A stretch of DNA of 64,000 bases, taken from the IMG/VR virus record IMGVR_UViG_3300021387_000118, positions 13,168-77,167 of that record; one strand, 5' to 3'. Positions 7,392 through 64,000 of this stretch are shown piece by piece. Made by a program: the position numbers and the translations under genes. Within the stretch, counting starts at the first letter, position 1; every line of letters begins with the position of its first letter. The stretch is from a virus. Below the pieces are notes generated by a model. That model saw only the letters and a list, made by a program, of their open reading frames with translations, was not told the DNA's origin and made no database searches.

Positions 7392-8162
7392 TCATACTTC
7401 AATAATATCTGCATTAAAACCATTCTACCTCAGGAGCGTTTGACGTTCCTTGGCATTAGCTAATTTACTATATGAACCGCAATATACATATGTTTGATTA
7501 TTATTAACCTCGGTAAAACAGTCGAGATTGAGTTTGATCTTAATCCTCTGCTGAATAATAGTAACGTTTTCCGGTATAGAATAAATCCCAACTCTTACAC
7601 GAAAGTTCTTAGGTTTAGGCTGATCCCTCAGGCGAAGAATATACATAACCTTAGCATTAGGATGAGCAAGACTGCCGATCCATTTTATGTAGGTCGCGCC
7701 CTCACCAGATTCACCCCCAGTAAATGCATGTCCAGTGTCGTAGCTCTTTCCATTGCCATAATAAGCATTCGTATGAGACATACTAACATAAGTCAACACA
7801 TCTCCTGGCAGAAGAGTACCATCATTCATTAACTGCTTGACGGTCTTCTTACCCTTGATAGAGATAATCTTAAAATACTTCTTACAATCTTCTTTAGCCG
7901 TAGAATTCAGCCACACAATTTTTCCCGCACCACCATACCATTGAAGCGCACTTGCGGGAACTCCTGCTCCTTTCATGGCAAATATTACGCCGCCAGCACA
8001 ATTCGTATATCTCATATTTGCTTTACGGGTAGCTTCGAAAGTAGGTTTACTTCGATGGCTGCTATTATTATAATATTTCCAAGGCTTACCATCAGCCTTA
8101 TCCTATTTAACAATCTTATTATATTCTTTACACTTAGCAAGAAAGTTTTCAACTAAACTCAT
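7392..8162 (-). CDS. CHAP/NlpC-P60-like peptidoglycan peptidase (lysin), two in-frame TAGs
   Basis: RBS AAGGGGGAA precedes the ATG at 8162. The frame is continuous through TAG at 8103-8105 and 7425-7427 and ends at TGA 7392-7394. Motifs: Cys in YTNCAGGV, LLPGDVLTY, His in HTNAYYG. Confidence 0.55.
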
Positions 8163-8176
8163 ACCAACATTCCCCC

Positions 8177-9976
8177 TTAAATGGTTACAACAACACAATC
8201 AAATCCCTTAGACATGATTCTGCTACATAATTTATCTGCATTTTGTAATATCTCAAATTTCCCCGCCTAAACATACCACTGATCATCCTGCTGATACATA
8301 AGCGCATCAAAGCCGGATTTCTTTAATTTCTCTATTAATTTAGTAGCGTTCTATTTCTTGGTAAAGATCCCACACCGAACCTAGTATTGAGTAGATGGCT
8401 TAGATGGCTCAGAAGCTATTGTTTTAGCGTCTATCGTAGCAATAGCATATATCTGGTTACCCTCTGGATCAAAGACGCTTAAATGGGCTTTCTCGGCGGC
8501 TGCAATGGCATTCTCTTTAACAGTGTAAGCGCCAATTTGTCCAATATATGTCCCATTGGAATATGATTGAGCTACACGGTAATAGTTGTCTTTTATTTCT
8601 TGTGGAGTAACAGGTGCAGCACTTGAAACGGTATCAACCGTGCCATTTGAGATTGCGATCTGATCGTACTTGGTCAAATTATACTAATTAATTATGCGCA
8701 TTACACTAGTTATGTATGTCAGCCCTGTAGCATAACCTTTGTCTCGAATATAAGTAATCATTTGTTTAGGATCTTTCATTCCGACTACCGCACGATATTT
8801 ATATTCTCCACCTTGTTTTGCCCAGGTTAAGAACATTTCGTAATCATATAATGAATAAGCATAATTAGGATAAACTCTAAAATAGTCATTAATCCTTACG
8901 GCTACACCATTATATACTTCTGGAGTGTTTTTTAGAATTTGTTTCCCATCCCAGACGGTATAGTCTTTCCAGGTATCGTTGAGCAATGAACTTTTAATAC
9001 CCACAAGATTATTATTTTGTGTTAATACTAATGCATCACTAGCAGTTCCACCACCATTTTCAAGATAAGCCTATGCAATAACAACGGATGGCAAAATATT
9101 TGTATACTTATATAACTTCACACAAATTTCAGCAACCTTATTGATATAATCCTGTTGATTAACTGGCAATCCTTTGTAATCTGGCATTTCAGATAATATT
9201 TTCTGATTACGTTTTTGAATATCAGAGAGTTCTACAGTATATACCGCTTTCCCTTGGTAATCAAAAATTGAATAGCCAGCAGGACACTGAGACTTAGCTA
9301 TAGATAAATCTTTGAATGCTCCAAGCTATGATTTTTCATCTTCCCACGATTTGCGAATACGATACCATTTAACCTCTTCGGTGGTAGTAGCAACTCCATT
9401 CATAGCATTGGCAACATCTGCTCTAAACTTATCCATTGTCCATCCATAGCGGTTCCATATATGAGTTGGATCAACATGATTAGTGGATAAACCAGCTCTT
9501 CTACCTTCATCATGAGAGTATACTCTATATAATCCATTGCTCATTTTTTCTTGAGGATTCCAGCCATATTCCTTACATTTAAGTGCAAAGAATTGAACGG
9601 CAGTATTATACGCTCTAGTTACATCAGCTTTAAATTTCGCTTCATTAGTAACAGTGTAATTTGCACCTCCAGTATATTTCATATAATCTGATTCCATAAG
9701 TTCTACTGTAATAGAGTTATTGTTTCCAACACCACCATCTGCCCAGCTCCTACGATTATCTGGCAAAAACTGTAATACTAATCCATCTTGTTCAGCATCA
9801 ATACAATAATGAACACATGCTTGAATACCAGACTAATTCCAATAAGATGCGAGAGAAGCAGCAGTATTCTGTGCGGTACCAATCGTATGTAACTACATTG
9901 AATTGGGCGTGATTGTACGACCTGACTTATAACAATCATTCTTAGTAAGAATATTATTTTTAATTGTAATACTCAT
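8177..9976 (-). CDS. Multi-domain endolysin: N-acetylmuramoyl-L-alanine amidase (Amidase_2) + glucosaminidase + SPOR-like wall-binding repeats; several in-frame TAGs
   Basis: RBS AAGGAGG before the ATG at 9976. N-terminus KSGRTITPNSM(TAG)LHTIGT plus NNNSITVELME and SHDEGRRA..THIW match the Amidase_2/PGRP fold. The middle (NLVGIKS...KGYATGLTYITSVMRIINQY) resembles glucosaminidase PF01832. The C-terminus has YYRVAQS.. and QQDDQWYV repeats. Fragments 9326-9766, 8684-9004 and 8381-8677 share one frame joined by TAG. Real TAA stop at 8177. Confidence 0.75.
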
Positions 9977-9977
9977 T

Positions 9978-11202: not shown

Positions 11203-11463
11203 TTATTCCTTATAGGGTTCAATATACCCCATTGCCCTGGAAGAATCCGACAAACCATTAGTAGTCGGATCATTAACAACTCCAAGGATCACAAGTACGC
11301 CAAATACAGCATTGACAACAGCCAGAAGCTTATTGCCAAGATCGCCCAGATCAAGCTGGAAACCAAACACTGCGGCGATAACCTAAATTAACAGAAGAAC
11401 TGCCGGAATAAGAGACAACCAAAAGTTTCTGTTTAAAAATCTAATTTTCCAATTAATATTCAT
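11203..11463 (-). CDS. Holin-like small membrane protein (two TM helices, one in-frame TAG)
   Basis: RBS AAGGAGGAAG before the ATG at 11463. Protein is about 86 aa: MNINWKIRFLNRNFWLSLIPAVLLLI(TAG)VIAAVFGF..LLAVVNAVFGVLVILGVV, with a charged C-terminus. TAA at 11203. Confidence 0.5.
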
Positions 11464-12090: not shown

Positions 12091-13095
12091 TTAATATGTC
12101 CAGGCTAATGTTACCGATTTTCCGTTAGAAGATTGCGGATTATACCCATCTATACATCCCAGAAGAACCTAGAATGAGTTGGCAGTACAATTCCTTACTC
12201 CATATACAAACAATGCGCTATTAGCAGAACAAACCTGAACAAGTGGATAATACGTTCCAGAAATATTGAGATTATGTGTAATCGTGCAAACATCAGAAGC
12301 ACTAGTAACAGTATGATGATATACGGGATGAACATTAGTACATGTTAAACTGCCGGATAAAATCATATTACCACTCCAATCTACAGTTAATGCATTGGAT
12401 CTTCCGGCAGTAGTATTAGCTGTGCCGTTACCAATAGTAAATGCATAATCACCAGTGTTACTATAAATAGCAGAGTCTCCAGAACCTGAAACTGTGGCTT
12501 TATTATATTTTCCAATAACTGTGTTGTAATCATTTAATGCTACTACATACGTTCCAATAGCCATAGACGAACTACCGGATGAAGTATTATGATGACCCAT
12601 AGCTAACGCATGAGTTTTTGTAGCATTATTACTCTTACCTATAGAAACAGCATATGCATCAGAAGAAGTATTAGTATATCCTATAGAAAATGAATAATCC
12701 GCAGATGCAGTATCATTATTTCCAATAGAGAAACAGTTATTTCCACTAGCTATACTCGAAACACCTAAAGCTATAGAATTATTCCCTGAAGCGGCGGAAG
12801 ATATTCCTAAAACAAAAGAATTAGAACCTATTATATAGTCATTACTTCTTACACCTAAAGTATAACTTCTAATATAACTACTACCAACATAAGCACCATT
12901 AAAAGAACCCAATAAAATGCCGCTGGCTCCGAAAAATGAAACACCAGAGGCCAATAAAGATATATAATTATCTCCTAAAGATTTACTGTAAATTTTATCA
13001 ACAGCCAAATTCCCCGACACTTCCAAATCATTACAATACAATTTATTTAAAATTCTTCCCACTCCATTAACGAGAAGATTATTAAGAATTGCCAA
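12091..13095 (-). CDS. Tail fiber with YadA-head/Hep_Hag-like repeats (TTG start)
   Basis: RBS TAGGAGGTGA with an 8-nt spacer to the TTG at 13095. Repeats NNSIALGVSSIASGNNCFSIGNNDTA..SIGYTN..AVSIGKSNN..ALAMGHHN..SMAIG. TAG at 12169 is read through to TAA at 12091. Confidence 0.6.
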
Positions 13096-14258: not shown

Positions 14259-16154
14259 TTATCCCTCCACAAATTCGCTAGTAGTTAATAATGTTCCATT
14301 GTTGGCTATACTAATTGGGGTATGATATAACTCAAGAACCTAATCAGCAGTCAATGCGGTTGCATAAATGCGGAAATCAGATAAATCTCCACCATATGAC
14401 AATGCATTATTACTCCCATAATAACCAATTGCTCCGTTATTAAACGAACCAATAAATTGACCAGTATTAGAACGATTAGAAGTTGATTTTAATGTTCCAT
14501 CATAATATAATCGCATAATACCATCTTCAAATGTAAAACATATATGATGCCATTCATTTGCCGGAACTAAGAAGCCTGGTGCCCAAGTATTGCCAGAAAA
14601 AGATGAAGAAGTACCATGGTTCCAACCAATCCTAATTTTATAATCTCCAGAATATGTAAAAATTTGACAAATATCATTATACATATAATGATTATGAGAA
14701 TCGTCAAAATCATTTCTTTTCATCCAAAATGCAAACGTCATTTCATTATTTCTTGCTGCCGTAGTCCAAATATTTGGAATAAGAATCCTACTAGTTGACT
14801 AATCAAAATGCGAACTTGTACTATATTTTGGAGTATCAGTGGAGTATGTTATATTAGTTTTCGTACCGTTATGTTTGTATCCACTACAATCATATTCAAT
14901 TCCGTCATTAAGTCCCATGGCGGTATATTCGGACTCAGTTACGGTTGATGTCCATGGGGTAGCTTTATCCCCTTTTTCGAATTTCATATTTTTAACGTAC
15001 ACTTTACCTGAACAATCTCTTACATATACATATCCATACATACTCGTTGGGATCTAATTAAATCGGACAATTTGATACTATCTAATCCATCCTTTTCCAG
15101 ATGAATCATAAAAATATTTCTTTCCATTAACATAATATGCTCCTAACCATTTAGAAGTTCCATTATTATTGTAGGTTCCATCAAGATAAAATTCACACAT
15201 TGGATTAGTAGTTCCTTTTGTAAGATTTTCAACCAAAATATCGGCAGATATGGTATACATCTATGACAGATCCGATGGGTCTATTGCACTTAAAACAGTT
15301 TGACGAATATAATTAGTTTTACCAATTGCACAATTTGCAACAAAGCAACCAATGCCGTCTTTAGTTGTTATTCCGTCACCAGACTAATAAACGGTCCATG
15401 ATGTAGTATTCTTTTGCAATGCACTATTTATGAACATATTTGCCTATATAGATGTGCTTAGTGGATAATGCACAACCAACCCTTTTGCAATCTCGGCAAC
15501 TTCACGGGGAGAGAGAGGGGTATCATAAACACGAATATCATTGCAATAATACGGAATAGCTAATGTCTATCCATTGCCGCCATAAACCTACTTCATATTC
15601 ATTTTAAATGGATATTTGGGGATCGTAGTAATATTTGGAGTATTGGTTGTTTGAAATAATTCCCCGTTAATATACAACGATATTTTTTTACTTGGTAAAT
15701 CCATTATGCATGCAAGATGAACCCATTTATCCATAAGGTTATGATTCTTTAAACTATATGAAATAACATACAAATTACTACCTTCTCTTACTGGCGTATG
15801 AATAATAAAATTAGTATATGGTTTAGTAGCTGTCCAAGATAATGCTAAACCATTATAACTGTTGTAGCCCATTAAAGTACCAAACATAGTTGTGTGTGTA
15901 GTAGAATAATTATCAATATAACTTTGAATTTCACTTTCTGGAAATTTAAACCATCCACATAATGTTGCGCCATTTTCACCAATCCAATCAGTAGAAGTCA
16001 TGCCAGATTCAATTGTGCTATTATTTGTTTTAATACATTTACCAAGTTTACCTTCATTAGACGAAGAATAACCAGTAGTAGTAAATTGTTCGGTAGATAA
16101 TCCTTGATTGTGTAATGTCCCATCTGTCATTGGAAACCAATATTTTAACGCCAT
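14259..16154 (-). CDS. Tail fiber / receptor-binding protein with two concanavalin-A-like (LamG) lectin domains
   Basis: RBS GGAGGTG before the ATG at 16154. Fragments 15588-16160, 15078-15260, 14799-15041 and 14340-14741 share one frame and are joined by TAGs. The C-terminal domain TFAFWMK..WHHICFTFEDGIMRLYYDG..FRIYATAL is LamG-like. TAA at 14259. Confidence 0.6.
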
Positions 16155-16237: not shown

Positions 16238-19200
16238 TTAATTAAAAATAAAATCTAACGAATTAGTTGTTGAATTAAACTCCATTCTGCATCCACTCGT
16301 ATTAGTGGCATTTCCACCAACGGTTACTGAGCCATTAAACACAGCATTACCAATCGTTGATATTGAAGCAACCTGAGTCGGGGTTCTTCCGCCCTTCCAT
16401 ACCCAACCACGAGTTGCATCATTAGTCGTTGAAGTTGTCTTCATTGTAAAGTACGTTGCCCAGTCGCCTTGAACATAACCATGAGCGCCTTGATTCGATA
16501 CGTTGCGCATCAAAATACCATAATAGTCTGGATCAGTACCAAACAGAGCAATACCGCCAGCAGTAGCAGATTGGCCACTATTAGCCGCAAGGTATCCACT
16601 TGCCGCAAAACTTGTACCAGTAACAGCTCCAGTAAAAGCACCGCCAGATTTTTTCATGTAGGTAGTATTGATTGCATTCCCATCAGAGTCCTGTGTGGCT
16701 TTGGTTGCTGCTCCAACAGTAACACTGGAAGCTCTCGACCACTTCATCTGCCCACCAGATGCGAATGCATCAATACCAACAAGATATGTAAATCCGTTTG
16801 ATTCTGTCAATGAAGTTGCCGTCCATTTAAGTGGGCCTGTCATAGTTCCACCAGACAATGGAAGAGCATATGAGTCATAATTACTGGTGGTTAACATGTT
16901 GGATAAATCATATGTCTATCCACTTGTGCCTGTGAGCTTAAACCACCAAGTGGGGTCATCATCTGTTGCACCTCCATTCGATGATCCGGCAAAAGTAACA
17001 ATAGGTGTATTATACGCAACATCTAACATTCCCTTTGTGTCAGACGCTCCGAATAAAATTGCTGATGAATAACTACCACTATTCCAGGTCGCTTTTGATG
17101 ATGAAGGTCTTGCTACAGTTATCTTTGTACCACTTGTTGTTCCTCCAAGAGTTTTCCACCCGCCAGTTGCAAGAGAGACACCACTCACCGCCGCGAGAGC
17201 AATAGGTTTTCCACTCACATTTGCCCAAGCTACAGCATTTGCAGTAGTCGCAGTAGTAGCAGTAGTAGCATTGCCAGAGATAGAAATATCCCAAGTGCCT
17301 GATGCTCCATCGCCAGTTTTTGTAACAGTATAAGATGTATAGTTATGAGAATCTAATACTGTAAGCCAATTTCCCCAAGTATTCGCAGTTCCATATTCAC
17401 CTCTAATCTATAGGTATGGAGTAGATGAACTATGACAATAAGCTATCTATCCATCCCAAGCACCATTATCCCATGGCAGATGTAAGATATGAGCGTCACT
17501 TCCAGGTTTACCCTCGGTCATAGAACCTGTTGCTAAGAAGTATCTTACCTTGTTATCCGCAAAATTTTTATTTGCAGTTGTCGGTCTTGATGCTGTGCCA
17601 GATTGTGGTTCCCAAGATGAATTTAAACCACATAATGCAGCACTATCGACTGCGGTACAAGCAGTTATAATACCATGATTATCAACATAAACAGGCTAAG
17701 TTGCACTTCCTACATCTGCAAATGTTTTATTATCACTACCAGATGGTAATAGAGCAAATTTATACCATTTAGTCCATGTAGCTCCAGTATCTTGTGATGA
17801 ACGATAAAATAAATCGTTATTACCACTATCGAGAAATTGTCTAATAGTTTTAGGGCGATATCCAATATATGTTATTAATTTTAATCCAGCACCAGATACT
17901 GGAACCGTTCCAGATAATGTATTAGTTATAGTGTTACTAGCGCTATAATAAGTTCCGGCCTCCTTATAGTTAGTATCTATATTGCTTGATTCTGCCATGT
18001 CTGTTCCACAAGCTTTGATATATGCACCACCTAAATTAGTAATAGCATCAATAGCAGTTGTTGCACTAGTACCACCTTGAGCTATAGTAACTGTATTTTT
18101 TGATGTTAGAATTGCATATTCTTTATTAGATGTTAAACCTGCTGAAACAGCTGGTAAACTATATGTTTCATACTTTCCAGTTGTAGCAGTATCTGCTGTG
18201 CTATTAGGACTAAATTCTCTCCACTAAAACCTTCCTGAAGTAATATTAGTAGCATTTCCTGCATCATACCAAGATTCAGCTACCTATGTACCAGCATTAT
18301 TTTTATAATATATATCGCCGATCCATCGAACAGCTGTACCAGCATCGCCCCTACCAAGTAAATCTATATAACCAAATTGTTTACGACCTCTAAAAGCTTG
18401 TGTACCAGTAGTAACTATTCCACTAGCAGTTGGACTAGCACTTGGTATAACTGCGGTTTTAGTTTCACCTAAAATTGTCACACTTAAAGTAGGTCCAGCA
18501 GTTGTTCCATCAGAATATGACAAGTCTGTGAAAATATCTTCTGCTGATGTTTGACCAGTACCTCCTTGGGCTATTGTGACAGGATTTTTTGTTGACAACA
18601 TTGTTGACCAAGCACCCCAAGAAGTATTAGTTCCTCCACTATCATTTTGTCTGAATAAGAGAGTATCACCTCTAGCGACAATTTGGAATTTATCACCAGC
18701 ACTTCCAACCTATAAACCAACCCAATCAGAACTTCCAAATGGTTCACCAACACCCGCAAATGAGAATGTGCCAGCAGTATTATTTATTGTAGTACTATCT
18801 AAAGTTTTATTTGTTAATGTTTCTGCGGTAGTAGCACTTCCCGCAGTATCAGCATGTCCGGCATTCATCTTAGTCCATGCTGACCATGTACTGTCTGCAC
18901 TTTTCCACCAACGTTTATAAAAATATAAAGTCGATGAATCATGAACAACTAACTAAAACGGTGTGCCGATTGTTCTAGCATTTAACCAAACCATATGCCC
19001 AGTAGTATAAGCATCTGTCACGTTCCCCATAGTAAATGCTATACTATCAGTTTCAGATAAAGCCTATGCTGTCCATGTTGTCATATCATTAGTGTTGATA
19101 TAACGCATTCCAGATCCAGCCGCTGTTCCAGACATGTCGAGGCTAAATTTGTTAGATGATAATGTAAGACCAACTCCTGCACTATAAGTGGTATTAGTTG

Positions 19201-25485: not shown

Positions 25486-25899
25486 TCAAACTGACCATGC
25501 CATCACCACCCCATATACACCATCAAGAATATTAATCTCATAAATTGTATTCGTTGCAAGTGCTGTCGGATCAAACGAACTTGGAAACTTAACAGTTGAT
25601 GGTACAGTTAAAACCGCAACTGTACTTCCGCTTGTAAACCGCACATCGCAAATGCCACTTGCACATGGCGTAAAGTTAAGAGACGTAACCTCGCCACAAA
25701 CATACATGTGATTACTCTAAGCGGTTATTGCAGGAGTAGCACCAGTAATGTTCTCTATAATTGGAGCGGAGAGATTAGCAATATCTTGCTTATCAGTAGC
25801 AGTAAGAGTGTAAGTGTCTCCTTTATCACCTTTATCTCCTTTAATTGCGGGAATGTTTATCCATTGATTATTACTATCTTTAATTTTTAAAACGCTCAA
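25486..25899 (-). CDS. Small structural protein with GDKGDKGD collagen-like triplets (TTG start)
   Basis: RBS GGAGGTGA with a 6-nt spacer to the TTG at 25899. Fragments 25717-25899 and 25486-25707 are joined by TAG. TGA at 25486. Confidence 0.45.
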
Positions 25900-46577: not shown

Positions 46578-47409
46578 TAATATGCACCCACCTTTCTAGG
46601 CTCTCTCCATGTAAACGTTACATTTGCACCCTGAGTAACCGTAAAGATATTTTCGCCGTTATATAATTTAGGCCAATAAAATTGTGTAAGATCAGCAATC
46701 CCAATGTCTGAAAATGCAATATCATTTCCATCCTGATCGTATATGAGATATTTTTGACAATCAATATTTACTTCGGTGTTGGATGGGATTGTTAGCGTTA
46801 ATGAATTATTACCATCTGTAACAGCAGTAATAGTAACTTCACCAGCTGAATCACTAATAGTTACAATAGGATATAATTCACGTTTCCTTTCCGCTGAATT
46901 AACAACTATCTGTAATTGATTATCATCCTAAGTACTTGAAATTTGTTTCTTTTTTTCTTCAGTCCATGCGAACGGCGAATTAGTGTGAAACGTACAATTT
47001 AATCCAATAATGTCTCCATTCCATACCTATGATTGAATGTCGCTAAACACCCCAAAATATTCATACCTTGTAAAACTTTCCAGATCATCGTCGTACATTT
47101 TTAATAAAGTAGGATAGTCGGGAGATGTGAGCCACGCAGCTATCTCATTTACTTCATATTCAGTAAAAATCATACCTTCATCATCTGGAAATTCGCAAGG
47201 ACTTTTTATGAATGAAACATCGAACGACAGAACGTCGGACCACTAAGTTCCCATATTTGTTGTAATAGATCTATATCTATTTAGTCCACTTGAAAGGACT
47301 TCGCGAGATAATCCCAATGGGATTTCTTCGCTGACAGATATGCCACCAATCATTAAATTATAACTGGTAGAATTAATTCCATCATAATCAAAACTAAATG
47401 TTCTCAATT
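46577..47409 (-). CDS. Distal tail protein (Dit)-like
   Basis: RBS AAAGGAG with an 8-nt spacer to a TTG at about 47409. Protein starts LRTFSFDYDGINSTSYNLMIGG... as Dit proteins do. The TAA overlaps the Tal ATG (TAATG). Coordinates approximate, because my hand translation has a 1-nt inconsistency. Confidence 0.45.
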
Positions 47410-53400: not shown

Positions 53401-56400
53401 AAGAGATTCACTTGTCTTTTGATGTTTGACATCAGCAGAATTAAGTAAATCTTCAGTTTGAGAAGCTTTTGTTTGAAGATCAGTATATTCGTTTTGAAGG
53501 TCAGTAAGAGGTAATTCTTTTAATGTCTTGCTATATTCATAATACTTAGATGTTAAGGAGTCCAATGCTGTTTCTGCCTAAATATACTATTCATTACGTT
53601 CTTGCCAAATAGTATTAATGTTACCATTTTTATCAAACATTTCAGTATCATCAAGCAGATCCTTTGCGGCATCTCGTACAATTTTGGCTTGCTCTAATAT
53701 GCCATCATTACCCTCATATGGAGCCATTACACCCTCAATATAATCTTTCGTAACCTTTCTACCAAGATTTTCTAATTGTGAATAATCACTTTCAAGAGCT
53801 TCAGCCTACGACTGAAGTTTAGCTAATTCAGCAGAAGCCTATTGATATGGTAATTCTTCTTGCTCTTTTCTCATATTAAATCTTTGTGTAAGATTACTCC
53901 ACCAATCAGACTTATTGCTCTATCTATTACTCCTAGCATTCTATGCACGTTCAGAATTCTCTCCATATACAGCGGAATATATTGTTTCCTATGCTCCATA
54001 TATTGCATCAAGGACGTTATTTCCAATAATCTGTTTGCTAAGATTATCTATATTCTTTTTATAGTCAGAATCTGACATCCCTTGTCCTTTTGTCGCATTA
54101 AATTCCTACTCATTCTAAAGCTCTGTTAATGCATCTTTATATTTTTGAATAGCGTTAGCAGCTTGTTCTCCAGGAAGTTCAAATAATGATCTAGCAAAAT
54201 CAGACTATGTATCACGAGCGCTGATTAAAGAATCTACAAGTGAATCAATGGCATCTTTTTCCTGATAATATGCATCACTGCCATAAGCAATGGAGCCGTC
54301 ATTCATAGCTTCTTGTAATTTAACTCTTCTCCTTGCGATCTATTCTTCAATGTTTTCTATGTTTTCTTCGTTTAATCCCATTAAGTTCATATAACCACTA
54401 GCGGTCGGCTCTCTTTTTTCAAAATCAGCCTAAGCTTTTTCAAATGAACGAGATATTTCTGTGCCAGTACGTTCTAGCTCTCTAAATGGAAGTTCACTTA
54501 TTGCGTTTTTATATTCATATATTTTCTGCGTTAAATTATCAATAGCATCGGCATTACTATCATAATTGTTTTGCATTTCTTGCCATTCGCTATTATTACG
54601 TGCATATTCATCGAATGATGATTTTGCTTGCTCGAAAGACTCAAATTGATGACTTGCCATATATTCGCGCCTAAATTGATCCTGTTGTGCCAAAATTTCA
54701 TCTTGTTGATTAGCAAGATTAGACTTCTCAGCCCTAGCTGCATCAATTGCGCCCTAATATATTTCTTTTGTAATATCTCCACCCATAGTTTCTCTGTTGG
54801 AAATTTCTTTCTCGGCTTGTGCTGTCGCTCTGGCAAGTTCTGTGCCAATATTTTGAAGATTGGTTAATGGAAGTTCATTGATTGCTTTACCCCAATTACG
54901 GATTTTCTCTATAATAGAATCTAAAGACCCTTGGTTAGTGTCAAGATCTGCCATAAACTGTTGCCATTCCGTATTCTGCGCAAGTATTGAATCCTTTTGT
55001 TCTTCCCAAGCGGCATCTGCTTGTTCTTTCGACTCAAATTGATGACTCGCCATAAACTCTTTTCTTTGCATCTCTTCAAACTATGTGGCTTCATCAAGAA
55101 TTTCTTGTCTTGTTCTTTCAAGATTTTCTTTTTCGGCAGAAGCAGAATCAATAGCTTGTTGATACAATGACTATGTAGGAACATTGCCAATGTTCTCAAC
55201 ATTTTGAATTTGTCGTTCCGCATCAGCTGTCGCTCTGGCAAGTTCCGTACCAAAGCTTTCAAGTTCAACACGAGGTTGTTTTAATATAGCTAAATTATTT
55301 TTCTGTTTATTAGTTTTTTCGCCAAATATTAATCCGGTTAATTCCTTTACTCTGTTTTGCAATATGGTATTCTTAGGACTCTTAGCGAGTTTTTCTTCTG
55401 CTGCTTTTAGCTATCCTTCGTATGCTTTAATTAAACCATCACTTATTGCGTTGTCAGCTTCGTAATCCTCAATTGTCATTGCATTACCGAGAACATCATC
55501 TAATCCTTGCTTTTGAGAATTGAGATTTCTATCGGCAGTAAGAGAGTCAATTGTTTTCTGTAAGTTTTCTGTTTCAACTTCAAGATCCCATACAAGTTTA
55601 TAATCTCCGTATTTTTCGATCAATGTATCAACGTCACCAGAGAATTGATCTTGTAATGCAAGAACTATATTCCAATTAAGATCTTCACCGTATTTTTCTT
55701 TCAAAGCGCTTAGTTTATTGTTAAACTATTCGTACTGTGCAATCCTTTCTTCATTATCATAAGCTGGCGCAGTAATAAATGATTCCCTAACCTATTTTAA
55801 TGCCTCTTGTTCAGAGACATTAACTTTTCTATAACTAGCAGTAAAATTAGCAAGATAGGTATCAAGCTACTTAATTCCTTCATCAGAGAAATCAGTCCAT
55901 CCAGATTTAAACTAATCTATCCAATTGCTAAGTTCCTTTGTACCGAATTTTGAAATACCTTCCTCTGAAAAATCAGTCATGTCTGGAAACTCTTCTTGTA
56001 AATCGCGCATTTGCTCCGCTGTAAGAGATCCTTCTGTGCGAAGTGTTTCAAGCGCCCCCGTCAACGAGGAGAGTCTCTTCTCATATCCTTCTGTAGCAGA
56101 TTGATAGCTCTCGTCTGAGAAAATAGAAGAGAGGGTGCCATCTTTTTCGATTTCTGGTACTTTATCCTAATATTCTTTTATCCAATCGAGAAGATCATAA
56201 AATCCTCCGCCAAGTTTAAAATCAAAACTGCCATTATCTATTGCCTCAATTATGCTACCTTTTTGCCCTTGGGTTAATTTTGACAACATACGTTTATCTA
56301 TACGGCCTTCATCTCCACCAAGTGCTTCGTATATTTGATCGTTCACATTTTGATATGAAGCAAAATAATTACCATTCTCATCGACAAATTCATATTTTAA

Positions 56401-58040
56401 TGCAACCTTAAAAGTATGCTATAATTCTTCGTCTCCAGGGAATAATTTTTCTAAAATGTCATCTAATTGATTTGTCATTTCCGCATCTGTTAAATCAGAA
56501 GAGTCAAATGTAAATAAACTTTCAATTTGTTTAGTAACTTCTTCTTTATCTTGTTTTGTTTTGGCTCTATCAAATGCATTAGATAAACTATACATCAATT
56601 TATTTTTAATATAATCATCAAAGTTTTCGAAAATATCTTGCTCTTCAAATGCGGCATATGCCTTACTCAAATCAATACCAGACACAGCAGATGCTATGCC
56701 ATTTTGTATTGTCTCAGAGAATTCTTTATAGGTTGCTGTGGTTGTAAATTTTGACATAAGAGATGGTTTTAAGGATTCCCAATTATCTTTAATTTGTCTC
56801 TCAGAGATATTTATATTGTCTTCTGCAATTTTTGCCTCATCATAAGAAGAATCTCCAGAAAGACCAAGTAACTTGTTCGCTTCTTCAATAGCATCTTCTA
56901 ACTAATCAGTATCTGCATTAAAGAAATATGTGACTGTTGGAGCAGTAATATTACCTTCTGCATCCATTATATTCCCACCGGTAATCCATTGATCAGTTAA
57001 ATTGATTCCATTTTTACCAAATCCTTGCTCAAACGCTTCAGATACTTTTCCACCATAATCCATGCTTTGGTCAATAACTACCTTATAACCATCTTCGGTT
57101 TTTTCTATGAAAGATTCAATTCCATTTTTTGTCGCATCAATATTTGATTTAGTAGCTTTTACCATTGATTCATTTTCAGATATTGTGCGTAATTCTTTAT
57201 CATTCTATGCAAGAACACCATTCAACTAATCTTCGAATTTGTCTCCGATTTCTTTGTTCGCCAGATCTCTCTGTACAGCAAGCAAATCCTGTAGTGACTG
57301 AGTTGCTTTATCAGCATCTGTGCCAAGATTTACATATGCATTTCCTTGAGCATCTGTACCAGCCCTCAACGATGGGTACAAATCAACCAATTGCCTATTT
57401 ACATCTAAAAATTCATTATACTCATCAGTTGACAAAGATGCATTTTCGTATCCTTTACCCTCTTTATATGTTACACCAGACCTTAATTCATTATAACGCT
57501 TTCCTAAATCTGTTGTAGATGTTTCTCTTTCTTTATAATTTTTATTAACATCTTCAATTTGCTATTGAGCTTTTTTACCTTTTGCTATTAAATTATCTTG
57601 CTTTTTAATAACATCATTATATATCCACTCAATTCCTTTTCCGATTACTGTAATAATAGCTGTTACAGCAATTGTTGTTAATGCGGTTGATATTAAAGAT
57701 TTCAATGCCCCACCGAACTTAGCAAGCGATGAAACAATATTTGGCATTGCTTCTGGAACCATCCGTACAGTTGTCTACATTTTTCGCATTGCATCTCCCA
57801 TTGATAATGCCTATAATTCTGTATCGGACATACTGTCTTTTAATCTAGCAAAAGCATCGCTACTAACAACGATATTTTTAGCCCATTCATTAGTATTTAA
57901 TTGTTCCATAAAATTGCCATCAATTTTGAAATCTTTTAACGCTGTTTGTAATGAAGCACTAAGCGGTTTAAATACTTCTTCTTCAACAAGTTTTTTGTCA
58001 GGATCTCCAGAAAAGAAATTTTTTATAGCATAACCCCACA
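47476..58040 (-). CDS. Giant (~3520 aa) coiled-coil tail protein (tape-measure-like; TM helix, ~100-aa tandem repeats, putative peptidase region)
   Basis: All 18 track fragments from 57811-58074 down to 48271-48597 have end mod 3 = 0, and each begins at a CTA (TAG). The sampled gap 51034-51360 translates without TAA/TGA. Likely start is the internal ATG about 58040 (RBS GGTGA; MWGYAIKNFF...). Tandem repeats MASHQFES..GTELARATA at 54430-55362. TM segment LISTALTTIAVTAIITVIG. TGA at 47476. Confidence 0.5.
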
Positions 58041-58144
58041 TGTTTTCACCTTTAGAAGTCGTAGATAAAATCATTACATATAATAGTAAAATACATATGG
58101 TAAAATATAAATGCTAAAGATAATGTTTTTGTAGTTGAACAACA

Positions 58145-58182: not shown

Positions 58183-59169
58183 TCAGCAGATGAATCTGTT
58201 AAACTCATTATTCAATATCTCAATCCTTTTAGCAACATTAACTGCGTGTCCTGCGCCCTGAGAAGATGCTAAATTATATTCTTCACTAATGCTGCTTCCT
58301 TTTTCACCACCAAAGAAGTACTGAAGGAATGGGATTATTTTCTCATCATCTCCATGCTTTTCAATAAATGGTGTGAGAGTAGGTATGTTACCACGAGACA
58401 TTAATTTTCTCATAACAAACCTATTCTCTTTTTTATTTTCAGCAAGTGCATCATAAATGGTTAAGAATTTATCATATATACCAGAAAGTCTCTCAACATC
58501 TTGTGGCTCAATTTCAGTAGTACGCATAAATGGACCAATCTCTTTAGAGTCGAGACAAGGCTTATCATTAAACAACATAATCAGGCTTTGAATAACGATT
58601 GTCCTCTGCGCAAGTTTCGCCCTAGCGTTATTCGTTAACGCAACAAGGAATATTTTATGATCGCACAACTGGGAGATTTCATTTTTCGAAATAGCCTTCG
58701 CATAGTTACGATCATTAGCTTTGAGAGTAGTACCATTATTCAGTCTATAGAAGATATCTTCAATTTCTTCCTGAGTAATATCATCAAAAATAATAAGGTT
58801 CAAATTGTATTCATCAATTTTATCTCTAATTTCTTCCGGTAAATCAGAATATCTCATACCATTAATATCAGTTTCAAAATCATCCTCAATTATAGATGGA
58901 ACATCTTTAAGAGCGTATTTACCGTCCATAAAATCTATTATAGCAAAACATCTCTGTTTCCCGTCTATAAAATCGAAAGATGCTCGTCCGGCTTTAACAA
59001 CATAAAACGGTGGAACAGCATAGTCCATAATTAAACTATGAATTAGTAAAGATTTCTGCTGTACGTTCCAAACAATTCCACGTTGAACCTCATTATCAAA
59101 TGTTGCTTTGTTCGCTGTATATTGTCCATATAGTTTCTTTGCCGTCCAATTTGTTTGTGTTCGTATCAT
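58183..59169 (-). CDS. DUF262 (ParB/Srx-like nuclease-NTPase, GmrSD/SspE N-terminal type) protein; standard-code moron
   Basis: RBS GAAAGGAGTCAACT before the ATG at 59169. 328 aa with no in-frame TAG, unlike all its neighbours. DUF262 hallmarks EVQRGIVWNVQQKSLLIHSL and FIDGKQRCFAII (DGQQR motif). Own promoter upstream and terminator downstream. TGA stop. Confidence 0.75.
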   Translation of the reverse strand: MIRTQTNWTAKKLYGQYTANKATFDNEVQRGIVWNVQQKSLLIHSLIMDYAVPPFYVVKAGRASFDFIDGKQRCFAIIDFMDGKYALKDVPSIIEDDFETDINGMRYSDLPEEIRDKIDEYNLNLIIFDDITQEEIEDIFYRLNNGTTLKANDRNYAKAISKNEISQLCDHKIFLVALTNNARAKLAQRTIVIQSLIMLFNDKPCLDSKEIGPFMRTTEIEPQDVERLSGIYDKFLTIYDALAENKKENRFVMRKLMSRGNIPTLTPFIEKHGDDEKIIPFLQYFFGGEKGSSISEEYNLASSQGAGHAVNVAKRIEILNNEFNRFIC

Positions 59170-59445: not shown

Positions 59446-62400
59446 TCATCTGACCTGTATTAGCAACATAATGGCATTGTTATTATGTTCTATACAGAGG
59501 GCATTTCTCCTACGACTTTTACCCTTGCCATTAATTTGTAGGAATATTCCTGCCGCTGCGCCCATTAATGTATTAAGATGACCAAACGCACCACCAAGAT
59601 CATTAAGTAAATTTAATAATTGAGTTCCAAGATCAATAAATCCCTTAATCCAGGATGAATCAATTGCTGATGCCGTTAATTCTTGAAGCGCATTTTGAAA
59701 TTGTGCAGCTTTACCTTGAATAGAATCAAGATATTTGTCTAATTCTTGTTGTGCTGAACCTTCTGAATTTAATGATGCTTCATATACCTCTTGTAATGTT
59801 TCAAAGTTGTCAAGAATCGAACTTGCCGCTGCAGCCCTTGTCTTACCAGCTATCGTTTCAAGCAAGAAAGACTATCTATTAGTTCCCATCTTTTTGTCTT
59901 CTTCGCCAATCTCTTTCCAAACTGATGCAATTCCTTTTAACATTTCATATGTTGTTTTATAGTTTCCGTTTTCATCAAGAATATCAAATCCCTGATAATT
60001 ATTGGCACTAACTTTAGTTGCATCCATGATTGTCGATCTTAATTTTGATTGTGTTGTTATAAGACCATCGATTTCTTCTCCGGCTTCTTGCATGTCTTCT
60101 ATGGAAGTTCCTGTTAATCTTAAGGCAATAGTACGAAGCGATTGACCAACCATTTGCGGGTTCTGAAGAACCTGATTTCCGGCTACTGTCAATGCGATGC
60201 TTTCGTCTATTGAATTTCCCGCAACCTTAAGTGTTCCGGCTGATCTTTGTAACGATTCTGCTAATTCGCTAGTTGAAATGCTAAAGTTATTACCTATGTT
60301 GTTCAGTTTATCAATGATATCAATTTTATCTAATTCCTGATAAGCTTGACTCATTGCCACCAGTGATTCTGTTGCAGTATTAATATCTTGAAACTCTGAT
60401 ACGTTGAGCAGAACAGTAGAGTATTCTGCACTTTTGCTTGCTTCTTTTAAATCCTCACCTAAGCGCATCCAATCGGCAGTACTAGCTGAAATCTATGCCG
60501 CAGTTGTTCCAACTCTATCTGCTATATCAAACGTTTCAAATTGATATTCTTGTAATGTTTGTAAACTTTCATCTGATACTTTTCTCATCTCTGTAAGTTG
60601 CGTATCAAGTTCTGTTACTGTTTGAATTGCTTCACGTCCATAACGAATAAAATCCTGGAAACTGAGATAATACGTCGCAAGACTAGTCATTGTGTTTTTG
60701 AATTGATCTTTGAAACGGTCACCGAGAGATTTGCCGAGAAGACCACGTTTTGCAGCATCTTCTTGTATTTTCTAAAATCTCGCAGTCCAATCTTGTGCAG
60801 CCCCCTTACTGCCAACCTATGATATGTCATCTTTTAATTGTTCAAGAGCTTCACTAAATTCTTTCGCGGCAATTTTATTCTGATTCATCCATTTCGCCAG
60901 ATCTGCGCCAGCCTTGGCCTACCAATCTCTTCCTACATCCTAAAAATCGATACTTTTGCTTACATCTTGATATGTTTTTCTTATTTCAAGTATCTATTGT
61001 TTAAAATCCTCTAATCCTTTCTCATCTATTATATCTGATGGATTTAAAGCCGTAAGCGAATCTTCTATTTTTTTTACTCTATCATCCCATCCATCCGCTC
61101 GCCATTCCGACTAACCTTTCATTTTATCTACACGATTAGCCATATCATTATACAATTTAGTGGCTTCGGCATTAATCGCGTTTTGTTTTAACATCTCTTC
61201 AGTATTCGTAGTAGATGCATTTTTTAATTCTTCTCTTGCTTGTACTTGTTTCTTTGACAAATTAAGACCTTCTGCTAAATCATCGTTCCAGCTCTATTCA
61301 ATACTTCTAATCTCTGTCATTAGAGATGCCATTTTTTGGAACTACTCATTTGTTAACGCAGTATTGCCAACTATATCTCCATTATCGTTTCGTTTCCATT
61401 CGCCACTTAATGCCTATTGATAAATTTTCTAATATTCGGCCCTGTCATTAGCATATTGATTTAATGTCTATCTTGTATTTTGTGCCTACATTTTCTTAAA
61501 TACAGACTTATATTTTGCTGATTGCGTCGGATCATTAAAAGAATCTTCGGCGCGAGTCCAACGATTCTACATTTGATTCGAAATATTACCATTAAATTTA
61601 TCAGTAACTTTATCGAGTGCTTCGCCAGCAGAAATAGCTGCTTCTTTTGCATCATTTAAATCTTGAACAAGCTTTGAATCTCCCTTTCCCCCAGACGCAT
61701 CCAATTTTGCTTGCAATTCAGCTACTTTGTCTGTAGCGTTTTCAAATGCAATAATAGCACTTTCTACTTCTTTAACAGATTTTTGATTAAAATTGTATTC
61801 ATCCTATGTATTTTTTAAATTCTGTTTTATAGTACGTAATTCATTCTAAAATCCAGTCATTGTATTTGAAGTAGCTTTGTCCTTAGATTTATTAAACCTA
61901 TCAATTAAATCGTTCAATTCCTTTTCAAGCTATTCTGTATCAGCATTTGATTCTTTCATGTCACGCAACGTTGATTGAAGATCGGTATTTAGTTTTGCCT
62001 TTGCTGCTTCTAAATTATCGGGACGAAGATTAGACGCTACTTTTTGATTTTTTTCAGCCTACTGAGCTGACAATCTATATTGCTTCAATAGATTATCTAA
62101 TTCTTGTCGCTCTACTTTATTTGTAGAACCCTTTGTACGTAATTCGCCAATTTTCTTCGTGACTGCATTATAAGCATCTTCAACCTTTTTCTTGTCTTCG
62201 CCTGAAAAATCATATGCACTACCATCAACATACTATTGCTTATATCTATTAAGTGTTGCTTCCTAACGACTTAATAACGCTTCTGTTTCTTCTATTGCCT
62301 TTTGCTTCAATTTTTCTCCGCTTGCAAAATCTTTTGCATCTTTTATGTCATTCTTTGCCTGATGCTTTTTCGTTTCGGCAGTAACTCTTTCATTAAATAA

Positions 62401-64000
62401 ATCAATTGAATAATTCCTATGTTCGTCAGCATAAGTTTTAGCCTATTCATTAATTGATCTTTGTTCTTCTTCAAGTAAATCAATATATTCTTTTATACTA
62501 CCAATTAACTTCTAATCTGGCGTGGAAGCTCTCTATGCTTCGTCAAGTGCCAACATCGCATCAGATAATTCGTTTGTAACACGAATAGCGTCACGTTCAA
62601 AAGAGAGGTAGTTAGTTGTTTCTGCACTAAATGGTTCCCAAGTTTTTTCTTTACGATTCCATTTTACACCTTCTTCATAAGTTCTACCACGTTCATCCTA
62701 ATATGTTTTAGATCGTTTACTTGGAGTTCTTTGCTCTTTGATGATTTTACCTTCTTTAGGAGACTAATCTGCATCACCAACCAAATTATCTTGCGCCTGT
62801 TTTTTTGCCGAATCACCTTCCTGTTTAATTCCCTCCGCAGCTTGTTTTGTTGCATCCGCTGTTTCTTTGGCAGAAGAGGCGACTTCATTATTTGCTCTTG
62901 TAAAATCAATTTTTGCGACAGCGGCAGTTTTCGCAGAATCTCCCTCGGTTTTAACACCTTCAGCAGCTTGTTTTGTTGCATCCGCTGTTTCTTTGGCAGC
63001 CTCGACAGTCTTTTCTTCTTGGTTAGTATCCTATCTATCACCTGTCTTTGATGCTTCTTCCTTCTTCTACTTTAATTCTTCTTCTGCCTTAGCAGCATCT
63101 TCCGCAGCTTGTTTTTCTTCTTTGTGCTGCTCAACCATAGGAGAGGAGGGCGGCTGCTGAACCCCAGATGCATCTGCGACTTTCTTTTCTGCTTCTGCAT
63201 GTTCTTCAGCGGCTTTAGCAGCTTGATGATGAGCATCAGCAGTCTCAGCGGCGGCATCTTTTTCAGCCTGTTTCCGCTTCTCTATTTCCGCTAATAAATC
63301 AACACCATATTTTTTGGCCTCATTTATGTAACTTTCTTGATCGGTTTCTATTATACGGCGATCTTCACTATCTGAAACACCAGGTCTTTTGGGAGGGTTC
63401 GATTTTTTCTCTTCAAGTCGTTGATACGCCTGTATTAAGCCCTCAACGATTTCCTACTCAGTCTTACCGGATTCAATTATCTATTTGCGACGCACAGCAT
63501 TTCTATCTGTATCCGCTCTCCATGGATCTCCATTTGCAATTGCAGCATCTTCAATCGCTTGAAACATTTCTTTTATTGCGTCCTCTGCCGACATCGAATC
63601 ATATTTAATTGCCTCAATCATCTCGTGATATTTAGCTTCTGTATCATCAAACGTCTTTGCAGAAACACCGTCCTCGAAATCTGGCATCGCTTTGTTAAAT
63701 GCATCAAGATTTGCTTGAATTTCAGGAGAAAACTAGATTTTTTGCCATTTCTAAGACGTTTCGTCAAACGCTACATCAAGGCGTTTCGCAACTTCCTCCA
63801 TACCTTTCATAGCATCTTCTGCACTAATCGCGCCAGAATTAATATCTTGGATATATTGCATATAAGCACGAGAGAGTGCCTCTGGTGGTTCTGTAGATTT
63901 TAATACGGATTTTGTCCAGGTGTTTTTAAAGTCATCAACGGTTGATGAAACTGGAGTTTCATCGGATAATTTACTTCTATATGATTCAATGCTTTCCTTA
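59446..64000 (-). CDS. Tail tape measure protein, TP901-family core region (partial; continues past the 3' window edge)
   Basis: Fragments 63481-63687, 60493-60690, 59872-60468 and 59446-59865 share one frame joined by TAGs. A continuous hand translation from about 62900 to 59446 has many TAGs and no TAA/TGA. The region DRFKDQFKNTMTSLATYY...LKVAGNSIDESIALTVAGNQVLQNPQMVGQSLRTIALRLTGT matches the TP901 tape-measure core. TGA at 59446. Confidence 0.65.

What the first reader, a model, noticed from the sequence alone, without database searches (positions are those of the whole stretch)
7392..64000. Amber (TAG) codon reassigned to sense throughout the 56-kb minus-strand late module
Every minus-strand structural and lysis gene is broken in the standard-code ORF track at plus-strand CTA triplets (minus-strand TAG). 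Consecutive fragments share a reading frame (end mod 3 identical). Translation through the TAGs gives coherent proteins: Amidase_2 IHHT-like motif, LamG domain, TP901 tape-measure core, Hep_Hag repeats. Genes end only at TAA/TGA, and those stops are immediately followed by strong RBS + ATG/TTG/GTG of the next gene. TAG density is about 1 per 50-150 codons. In paralogous fiber repeats the TAG column aligns with Q/H/Y/T (GN[TAG]AKFFRADGTW vs GK[Q]SSFLRGDGTW vs GN[H]NKFLRGDGTW), which is compatible with TAG->Gln as in known recoded gut phages. No suppressor tRNA or release-factor gene is visible in this window.
Basis: partly seen in the sequence, partly recalled or inferred. Interest (0 to 1): 0.85.

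Follow-up and report, generated by a model that had tools for sequence, protein, structure and literature searches.

The report
Amber codon read as glutamine
The tail and lysis genes of this large temperate phage use the stop codon TAG as a glutamine codon while its early and integrase genes avoid it, a known kind of phage genetic-code switch; a near-identical strain carries the matching suppressor tRNA, which has an unusual extra arm.

Summary
If TAG is read as sense, minus-strand ORF coverage rises from 62% to 90% and the longest ORF from 822 to 3,569 aa. TGA-sense or TAA-sense readings give no such gain. I delimited 31 late genes at 7392-64000. They hold 198 in-frame TAGs, about 1 per 92 codons, and 27 of the 31 have at least one. 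All 31 end in TAA or TGA. The plus-strand early and integrase genes hold two TAGs, both in the last six codons of one gene.

TAG means glutamine. Five of eight endolysin TAG columns are about 95% Gln in 115 homologs. In relatives, TAG most often aligns with CAA or CAG.

The window has no tRNA. A strain 97-98% identical carries a tRNA(CUA) in the head-gene cluster, 1.9 kb beyond the end of the window's contig.

This is code-15 recoding as described by Borges et al. and Babkin et al., here in an SPbeta-like phage lineage. The public protein database already holds this endolysin with Gln at every TAG.

One extra point deserves follow-up. The suppressor tRNA has a long variable arm whose 7-nt loop looks like a tRNA-Gln anticodon loop. 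This feature is widespread among phage tRNA(CUA) genes, and four searches of the open-access paper library found no description of it.

The parts
2..7023 (+). Early and lysogeny module that is compatible with the standard code. It holds the C-terminal part of ribonucleotide reductase (2-1939), Band_7 (3090-4073), dUTPase (4407-4847), o147 (5007-5450) and a tyrosine integrase (5827-7023).
   Evidence: There are 2 TAGs in 2,136 codons, both in the last 6 codons of o147, which reads ...NEN-TAG-SY-TAG-RH-TGA. TAG is therefore probably the real stop of that gene. Pfam assignments come from the database gene calls. A further 22 upstream early genes outside the window have 0 TAGs.
7392..8162 (-). 256-aa protein with a C-terminal SPOR domain, the last gene of the lysis cluster; 2 in-frame TAGs.
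8177..9976 (-). Endolysin (Amidase_2 + Glucosaminidase + SPOR), 599 aa, 8 in-frame TAGs.
   Evidence: Pfam matches. Five of the 8 TAG columns are 109-110 Gln out of 115 homologs, including a Parablautia protein that its NCBI/UniRef source names as a glucosaminidase domain-containing protein.
11203..11463 (-). Holin (Phage_holin_1), 86 aa, 1 in-frame TAG.
   Evidence: Database gene call and Pfam; codon count.
12091..13095 (-). YadA-head (Hep_Hag) repeat fiber protein, 334 aa, 1 TAG.
14259..16154 (-). Laminin_G_3 (LamG) tail protein, 631 aa, 9 TAGs.
16238..21250 (-). Tail fiber with FLRxDGTW repeats, 1,670 aa, 14 TAGs.
25896..29117 (-). SHAEG-repeat fiber protein, 1,073 aa, 11 TAGs.
29166..30737 (-). 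SHAEG-repeat fiber protein, 523 aa, 3 TAGs.
33115..41463 (-). Giant tail or baseplate protein, 2,782 aa, 11 TAGs.
41484..46577 (-). Giant tail protein, 1,697 aa, 15 TAGs.
46577..47407 (-). Distal tail protein (DUF6558, DUF6558_C, SPP1_Dit), 276 aa, 3 TAGs.
47476..58074 (-). Second giant coiled-coil protein resembling a tape measure, 3,532 aa, 55 TAGs.
58183..59169 (-). GmrSD_N (DUF262) gene with no TAG, lying between the two giant genes.
   Evidence: Pfam. It has 0 TAGs among 13 Gln-type codons; the chance of that at the late-gene TAG share is 0.02.
59446..64000 (-). C-terminal 1,517 aa of a 3,226-aa tape measure protein (PhageMin_Tail). It has 32 TAGs in the window and 73 over the whole gene.

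Best explanation
The window is part of a large temperate siphovirus genome, an SPbeta-like lineage whose relatives occur in Clostridia. It is written in two codes. The plus-strand early and lysogeny genes (nucleotide metabolism, integrase) avoid TAG, so an unmodified host can translate them. The minus-strand late module (tape measure, tail, fibers, holin, endolysin, and the head genes outside the window) uses TAG as a glutamine codon. TAG makes up 26% of Gln-type codons there (TAG + CAA + CAG), and it never terminates a late gene. Decoding is done by a phage-encoded tRNA with a CUA anticodon. That tRNA lies inside the head-gene cluster on the same strand as the late genes, so it probably appears only when late transcription starts. 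Structural and lysis proteins are therefore truncated until the suppressor is present, while integrase and early proteins need no suppressor. What is shown: the recoding, its restriction to the late module, the Gln meaning, and a tRNA(CUA) in a near-identical strain. What is inferred: that this exact genome carries the same tRNA, the timing of its expression, how it is charged with Gln, and how RF1 is outcompeted. The last point matters because the 3,226-aa tape measure protein has 73 TAGs, so at least about 99% read-through per codon is needed for a useful yield.
For: ORF coverage and length gains occur only with TAG as sense and only on the minus strand. The late genes have 198 in-frame TAGs and no TAG terminator. 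Early genes have 2 TAGs against 56 CAA/CAG codons, and late genes 198 against 574 (Fisher p = 2e-5). All 32 called early-strand genes in locus L005, which extends 8 kb upstream of the window, end in TAA or TGA. Pfam domains span the TAGs. For the Gln meaning, 5 of 8 endolysin TAG columns are about 95% Gln. Orthologous codons aligned to TAG in relatives with 78-91% capsid-protein identity are CAA 27, CAG 13, TAG 14, Glu 17, Lys 10 and Ser 7. CAG is depleted in late genes, at 27% of CAA+CAG against 62% in early genes, as expected if CAG mutated to TAG. The tRNA(CUA) at L097:6381-6472 scores 59.3 bits on the Rfam tRNA model and was also found by ARAGORN. L097 is 97-98% identical to the contig that holds the window, and the tRNA lies 1.9 kb beyond that contig's end. 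Relatives L098 and L100 are also TAG-recoded and carry a tRNA(CUA). More distant relatives with 38-44% capsid-protein identity show little or no gain from reading TAG as sense. The pattern matches Borges et al. and Babkin et al..
Against: No tRNA was found in the window, and none in about 125 kb of the same or a sister contig. The suppressor is therefore documented only in a 97-98% identical strain. The tRNA has a long variable arm and G73, an architecture otherwise typical of bacterial Ser, Leu and Tyr tRNAs, which does not by itself predict Gln. No release factor or aminoacyl-tRNA synthetase gene was seen in the explored part of the genome. How RF1 is beaten at 55-73 TAGs per ORF is therefore unexplained. 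There is no protein-level evidence.
Confidence: 0.87

Rival explanations
1. TAG is a sense codon but encodes Ser, or Leu or Tyr, because the suppressor tRNA is a class II-type tRNA with a long variable arm and G73 that SerRS could charge without reading the anticodon.
For: The tRNA(CUA) of the close strain is 92 nt long with a 19-nt variable-arm insertion and G73. In bacteria, long variable arms are otherwise confined to the Ser, Leu, Tyr and Sec tRNAs (my own knowledge).
Against: TAG columns are about 95% Gln in five conserved endolysin positions and never predominantly Ser, Leu or Tyr. Orthologous codons aligned to TAG are 40 Gln against 7 Ser, 3 Leu and 1 Tyr. CAG depletion in late genes matches a CAG-to-TAG origin. 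The D-stem has 4 bp, and the 1:72 pair is A-U or U-A as in tRNA-Gln.
Confidence: 0.06
2. There is no code switch: the host bacterium itself reads TAG as an amino acid, and the phage simply matches its host.
For: No release-factor or synthetase gene was found in the explored genome.
Against: Early and integrase genes avoid TAG, with 2 TAGs in 2,136 codons, and the only two lie at the end of o147 where TAG fits as a real stop. A phage matched to a code-15 host would have no reason to avoid TAG in early genes. The phage carries its own tRNA(CUA). Relatives of this family occur in genomes of isolates from ordinary Clostridia genera (Ruminococcus, Lacrimispora, Clostridium). Borges et al. found only standard-code hosts for TAG-recoded phages.
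Confidence: 0.03
3. The late module is a decaying prophage or an assembly artefact, and the TAGs are nonsense mutations or errors.
For: Under the standard code the genes look fragmented. A JGI gene call of the same DNA lists 49-198-aa fragments.
Against: There are 198 TAGs and no TAA or TGA in 18,212 in-frame codons. Domains are intact across the TAGs. The sequence is identical in three independent assemblies. The TAGs fall at conserved Gln columns. A cognate tRNA exists.
Confidence: 0.01

Closest known systems
[quoted passage not shown]
   Same: Structural and lysis genes are recoded while early genes are compatible with the standard code. The integrase is free of in-frame stops. TAG is not used as a terminator. 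A suppressor tRNA(CUA) is present. The hosts are standard-code Firmicutes. Those authors already proposed recoding as a gate on late and lysis genes and on the lysis-lysogeny decision.
   Different: I could not place this phage in one of their clades because no terminase comparison was possible. The genome size of its relatives (about 190-205 kb contigs) is in the range given for Jade and Sapphire. Here the tRNA(CUA) sits inside the recoded head operon rather than in a standard-code 'code change module'. Single ORFs carry 55-73 TAGs.
phAss-1 / proposed Phassvirus (OQ749652; Babkin et al. 2023, PMC10607447)
   Same: It is a large siphovirus-type genome (136 kb) with a tape measure protein above 3,100 aa. 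TAG-to-Gln recoding affects 41 ORFs. It has tRNA-Sup-CTA genes, and one of them (about 91 nt) has the same long variable arm with the CUCUGAA loop.
   Different: The major capsid protein is only 25% identical and there is almost no other protein similarity. phAss-1 has 36 tRNAs, against 3 found in the close strain here. Gene order differs.
SPbeta-like and other large temperate or virulent siphoviruses of Firmicutes (SPbeta-like Staphylococcus phages, Lactococcus 949 group, Bacillus phages Kirov and FADO)
   Same: The major capsid protein is 28-31% identical. There is a Pfam YonB hit, with faint YomW and YomO hits, in the head module. The tape measure genes are very long, the genome is large, and an integrase is present.
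   Different: I found no report that those phages are recoded, and I did not check their codon usage. Identity is low, so the relationship is at or above family level.
E. coli supE (tRNA-Gln with CUA anticodon)
   Same: The anticodon is CUA and the inferred amino acid is Gln.
   Different: supE is a 75-nt class I tRNA (my own knowledge). The phage tRNA has an extra stem-loop in the variable region.

Membership tests
Code-15 (TAG to Gln) alternatively coded phage | Many in-frame TAGs in otherwise intact, homologous genes; reading TAG as sense restores full-length proteins. | tested here: met
Code-15 (TAG to Gln) alternatively coded phage | TAG is not used as a terminator in the recoded genes. 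| tested here: met
   All 31 late genes end in TAA or TGA.
Code-15 (TAG to Gln) alternatively coded phage | TAG positions correspond to Gln in homologs. | tested here: met
   Five of 8 endolysin columns are about 95% Gln. There are 40 CAA/CAG among 100 orthologous sense codons aligned to TAG.
Code-15 (TAG to Gln) alternatively coded phage | A phage-encoded tRNA with anticodon CUA. | tested here: inconclusive
   It is absent from the window and from about 125 kb of the same or a sister contig. It is present in a 97-98% identical strain 1.9 kb past the contig end. Borges et al. detect one in only 40% of TAG-recoded genomes, so it is not strictly required for membership.
Code-15 (TAG to Gln) alternatively coded phage | Early genes are compatible with the standard code, as expected for a standard-code host. 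| tested here: met
Code-15 (TAG to Gln) alternatively coded phage | Gln at TAG positions confirmed at the protein level. | not testable with these tools
   This needs LC-MS/MS, as done by Peters et al. 2022 for crAss-like phages (PMC9523058, abstract seen).
Phassvirus-related group (Babkin et al. 2023) | Nucleotide or protein similarity and synteny with phAss-1. | tested here: not met
   No megablast hit in the phage collection. The capsid protein is 25% identical and only two other weak protein hits were found.
SPbeta-like large siphoviruses | Head and tail proteins homologous to the SPbeta YonB, YomW, YomO and tape measure proteins. | tested here: inconclusive
   There is a Pfam YonB hit, with faint YomW and YomO hits. 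The capsid protein is 28-31% identical to SPbeta-like and 949-group phages. No terminase or portal phylogeny was possible.
Class II (long variable arm) tRNA of Ser, Leu or Tyr identity | A long variable arm together with identity elements and the amino acid of Ser, Leu or Tyr. | tested here: not met
   The long arm is present. However, the inferred amino acid is Gln, the D-stem has 4 bp, and the arm's loop is like a tRNA-Gln anticodon loop.

The most novel reading that the evidence does not exclude
The amber suppressor tRNA of this phage lineage is a tRNA-Gln derivative that carries a second, anticodon-like stem-loop in its variable region, and so are most long tRNA(CUA) genes of the one anticodon-arm sequence family I sampled from IMG/VR phage contigs. 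The loop reads N-U-(C/U)-U-G-A-N. That is U33, the Gln anticodon CUG or UUG, and A37, closed by a stem that covaries. The reading is that this arm arose by duplication of the anticodon arm. It would present the native Gln anticodon to the charging machinery (GlnRS, or non-discriminating GluRS plus GatCAB) while the true anticodon CUA reads UAG on the ribosome. That would solve the problem that an anticodon change to CUA weakens Gln identity. The evidence is as follows. Among distinct tRNAs of at least 84 nt, 42 of 51 with a CUA anticodon have T(C/T)TGA in the variable region, against 2 of 77 with other anticodons. The 3-bp closing stem is 92% paired, with compensatory changes in all three pairs, and 0 of 500 shuffles reach its covariation score. 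All 30 phage tRNA-Gln(UUG/CUG) genes in the same loci are 71-77 nt, while 70 of 116 tRNA(CUA) genes are 85-96 nt. Of 48 loci that carry only long-arm tRNA(CUA), 36 gain more than 10% ORF coverage with TAG as sense. Four literature searches found no description of this. The function of the arm is untested, and the geometry of a variable arm does not obviously reach a synthetase's anticodon-binding domain.
Probability: 0.25. Interest if true: 0.75.

Novelty: new member of a known kind. Interest (0 to 1): 0.42.

Why it matters
For annotation, any standard-code gene call shreds this 56-kb module into fragments; a JGI call of the same DNA gives 49-198-aa pieces. Code 15 restores tail, fiber and lysis proteins of up to 3,532 aa. 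For biology, it is another independent lineage, a temperate SPbeta-like phage whose relatives occur in Clostridia, that puts lysis and virion genes behind a translational lock while leaving integrase and early genes readable by the host. This supports the model that links lysis-lysogeny partitioning to the genetic code. ORFs with 55-73 TAGs set a hard quantitative demand of about 99% read-through per codon, which makes this phage a good system for asking how RF1 is neutralised. The suppressor tRNA with a long arm and a Gln-anticodon-like loop gives a concrete, testable handle on the open question of how such suppressors are charged with Gln.

Tried and rejected
- Megablast of 50 kb of the window against INPHARED phages gave no hit.
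- tblastn and IMG/VR scans with the Dit protein gave nothing.
- An exact 47-mer from the window end is absent from IMG/VR and from the GTDB genomes.
- Rfam at gathering threshold found nothing in the window.
- A chimeric query (a 133-aa early protein joined to the tape measure N-terminus) for walking along the contig returned nothing. It was probably swamped by coiled-coil words, and it cost one homolog search.
- I then walked the contig using exact cluster look-ups and encoding-contig look-ups. This covered record positions 26.9-142.4 kb and a sister scaffold, and found no tRNA.
- ARAGORN at relaxed thresholds gave one weak call (16204-16297) at -ps90 and 127 obvious false positives at -ps80 -i. 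I rejected these as suppressor candidates.
- A nearest-neighbour comparison of tRNA halves to assign isotype was invalid because the ARAGORN sequence output was truncated at 50 nt. I discarded it.
- RNAalifold on a MAFFT alignment of whole tRNAs did not recover the variable-arm helix because that region was misaligned. I re-tested it on motif-anchored 17-mers.
- The sample origin could not be confirmed from the literature. The record names suggest sheep-rumen metagenomes, but that rests on my recollection only.


Full report
**Observation**

The window has 36% G+C, and strand asymmetry switches near position 7,000. Under the standard code, ORFs of at least 100 aa cover 62% of the minus strand and the longest is 822 aa. 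With TAG read as sense, coverage becomes 90% and ORFs of 3,569, 2,791, 1,725, 1,671 and 1,518 aa appear. Reading TGA or TAA as sense gives no comparable change, and the plus strand gains little.

I delimited 31 minus-strand genes between 7392 and 64000. They hold 198 in-frame TAGs in 18,212 codons, about 1 per 92. They have no in-frame TAA or TGA, and all end in TAA or TGA. Most start codons are preceded by AGGAG-type ribosome-binding sites. Twenty-seven of the 31 genes have at least one TAG.

Pfam domains run straight through the TAGs. Examples are Amidase_2, Glucosaminidase and SPOR in the 599-aa endolysin (8 TAGs), Laminin_G_3, YadA_head, PhageMin_Tail and a Dit-type distal tail protein. 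The holin has 1 TAG.

The window is 100% identical to contigs from ENA, Logan and JGI, so the TAGs are not assembly errors. A JGI standard-code gene call on the same DNA shows the expected fragmentation into pieces of 49-198 aa.

**Restriction to the late module**

The ten plus-strand genes at 2-7023 hold 2 TAGs in 2,136 codons. These genes include ribonucleotide reductase, Band_7, dUTPase and a tyrosine integrase. The comparison is 2 TAG against 56 CAA/CAG in early genes, and 198 against 574 in late genes (Fisher p = 2e-5).

Both early TAGs lie in the last six codons of one gene (5007-5450...NEN-TAG-SY-TAG-RH-TGA). TAG is probably the true stop of that gene before the switch.

Locus L005 overlaps the window and extends 8 kb upstream of it. 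All 32 plus-strand genes called there end in TAA or TGA, and the only two in-frame TAGs are the two just described.

Four late genes lack TAG. Only for the GmrSD_N (DUF262) gene at 58183-59169 is this unlikely by chance (P = 0.02).

**Meaning of TAG**

The public protein collection already holds this endolysin with Gln at every TAG, which means it was called under code 15. As independent evidence, I aligned the protein with X at the TAG positions to 115 homologs, leaving out the four closest. Five of the eight TAG columns are Gln in 109-110 of the 115. This includes a Parablautia protein that its NCBI/UniRef source names as a glucosaminidase domain-containing protein.

I also compared orthologous codons between a near-identical strain and three relatives with 78-91% capsid-protein identity. 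TAG is aligned with CAA 27 times, CAG 13, TAG 14, Glu codons 17, Lys 10 and Ser 7.

CAG is depleted in late genes, at 27% of CAA+CAG against 62% in early genes. That is the expected result of CAG-to-TAG transitions. Together these results support Gln and argue against Ser, Leu or Tyr.

**The rest of the genome and the suppressor tRNA**

The window has no tRNA (ARAGORN) and no Rfam match. It maps to positions 54,679-118,678 of a 142,374-bp ENA contig.

I walked that contig and a sister scaffold using exact protein look-ups. This covered about 125 kb. The early genes found include thymidylate synthase, NAD-dependent ligase, PARP with Macro, T4-type RNA ligases with a polynucleotide kinase, and PTH2. 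I also found a head module with a Pfam YonB hit and faint YomW and YomO hits. No tRNA and no release-factor or synthetase gene turned up.

A capsid-protein search of IMG/VR then found a contig (L097) that is 97-98% identical at nucleotide level to the end of the ENA contig and runs 8.3 kb beyond it. It carries a tRNA with anticodon CUA at L097:6381-6472. The tRNA scores 59.3 bits on the Rfam tRNA model. It is on the same strand as the late genes, just after a terminator-like hairpin that follows a 544-aa gene I take to be the portal gene from its position alone. It lies 1.9 kb past the point where the ENA contig stops. Two other tRNAs, Asn and Thr, lie upstream.

Relatives with 91% and 78% capsid-protein identity are also TAG-recoded and carry a tRNA(CUA). 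Relatives at 38-44% identity show little or no gain from reading TAG as sense.

**Mechanism**

The simplest reading is the published model. Early and lysogeny genes are translated by the unmodified host. Late transcription supplies both the recoded mRNAs and the suppressor tRNA. Virion and lysis proteins, including holin and endolysin, then become translatable.

Three things are inferred rather than shown: the presence of the tRNA in this exact genome, its timing, and its charging.

There is also a quantitative gap. The tape measure gene has 73 TAGs and the second giant gene has 55. At 95% read-through per codon only 2% and 6% of chains would be completed, and about 99% read-through is needed for roughly half. 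Something must nearly abolish RF1 action, and I did not find it.

**Comparison with what is known**

The phenomenon is established. Borges et al. describe eight clades with recoded structural and lysis genes and TAG-free integrases, and they detect suppressor tRNAs in only 40% of TAG-recoded genomes. Babkin et al. describe phAss-1, a 136-kb TAG-to-Gln siphovirus with a 3,149-aa tape measure protein. NCBI taxonomy has a 'Caudoviricetes code 15 clade'.

This phage is not a Phassvirus, because its capsid protein is only 25% identical. Its capsid protein is 28-31% identical to those of SPbeta-like, Lactococcus 949-group and Bacillus phages.

Its PARP gene has 1,932 homologs at E-values of 1e-20 or better in the metagenome protein database, on contigs of up to about 200 kb. 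PARP homolog loci also occur in genome assemblies of Ruminococcus, Lacrimispora and Clostridium isolates.

I therefore rate this as a new member of a known kind. It may belong to one of the Borges clades, which I could not test.

**An extra observation outside the window**

The suppressor tRNA is 92 nt long with a 19-nt insertion in the variable region.

I scanned IMG/VR for one common anticodon-arm sequence and recovered 107 tRNA(CUA) genes, of which 63 are 85-95 nt.

In 42 of 51 distinct long tRNA(CUA) sequences the variable region contains T(C/T)TGA, against 2 of 77 long tRNAs with other anticodons.

The motif sits in a 7-nt loop, N-U-(C/U)-U-G-A-N, closed by a stem that covaries. The stem is 92% paired, all three pairs show compensatory changes, 0 of 500 shuffles reach its covariation score, and slid registers score far lower. 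The loop has the form of genuine tRNA-Gln anticodon loops seen in related phages, such as CTTTGAA and TTTTGAT.

Loci with long-arm tRNA(CUA) are mostly TAG-recoded. One of the three annotated Sup-CTA genes of phAss-1 is of this type.

Two caveats apply. The segments used for the stem test were picked by the loop motif. The sequences are also related to one another, and all came from a single anticodon-arm sequence family.

Whether the arm acts as a Gln-anticodon mimic for charging is a hypothesis. Four searches of the open-access paper library found no description of it, which does not prove that it is new.

**Verdict**

The finding is a clean, well-supported example of a known phenomenon. The added value is in three points: the tRNA's location inside the late operon, the extreme TAG load of the giant ORFs, and the unusual architecture of the suppressor tRNA.

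Noticed in passing
L097:6381-6472 (IMG/VR contig IMGVR_UViG_3300031867_000640, outside the window); also L098:20379-20474, L100:222-313, L014:12442-12532 (phAss-1): The amber suppressor tRNA(CUA) has a long variable arm whose 7-nt loop (N-U-C/U-U-G-A-N) looks like a tRNA-Gln anticodon loop. The feature is shared by 42 of 51 distinct long tRNA(CUA) sequences in the loci I fetched, mostly IMG/VR phage contigs, and the stem that closes the loop covaries.
   Followed up: partly
window 58183-59169 (-): A GmrSD_N (DUF262) gene with no TAG lies between two giant genes resembling tape measure genes (3,226 aa with PhageMin_Tail, and 3,532 aa). It may be a mobile or defence-type insertion that splits, or sits beside, the tape measure gene. 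The two giant genes together encode about 6,750 aa.
   Followed up: partly
window 16204-16240 (-): A hairpin, AGAAGAC-TGCGG-TTCGACT-CCGTG-GTCTTCT followed by ATTT, lies between the 1,670-aa fiber gene and the LamG gene. It has the form of a tRNA acceptor/T-arm minihelix with a canonical T-loop. ARAGORN calls it only at a relaxed threshold. It could be a terminator or a tRNA remnant.
   Followed up: partly
window 5007-5450 (+): This early-strand gene reads ...NEN-TAG-SY-TAG-RH-TGA at its end. It would end at TAG in the standard-code state and gain a 6-aa extension once suppression is on. It holds the only TAGs in the early module.
   Followed up: partly
L010:579-913 and L098:17464-17809 (head region, outside the window): Group I introns (Rfam 53 and 59 bits). 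In L010 the intron lies next to a 311-aa TAG-free ORF containing a CSNCHH motif that I read as HNH-like, and it apparently interrupts a head gene. A LAGLIDADG-like ORF is also present in L012.
   Followed up: no
L006:7050-7481, L011:6556-9761, L011:620-2268 (early region, outside the window): The early region encodes a PTH2 peptidyl-tRNA hydrolase, two T4-type RNA ligases with a KTI12/AAA_33 kinase (a possible tRNA-repair set), and a PARP with Macro pair. The PTH2 gene and the putative tRNA-repair set could bear on translation during the code switch.
   Followed up: no
L008:1628-3274; L016:12997-14511; L016:682-5214: A 548-aa protein with RRXRR and HNH domains. In a relative, a TnpB/Cas12f-like ORF and a DNA polymerase III alpha gene that contains an intein.
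   Followed up: no
L097:1078-1148: ARAGORN reads this tRNA as Asn with anticodon ATT. The corresponding gene in relatives has GTT. An A34 anticodon is unusual for bacterial-type tRNAs.
   Followed up: no
L105:3362-3454 and L106:6760-6852 (JGI metagenome contigs): The same 92-nt suppressor tRNA (97% identical over 98 nt) occurs on contigs with no other nucleotide similarity to L097 or to the head-module locus L012 of this phage. This suggests that the tRNA moves between phages.
   Followed up: partly
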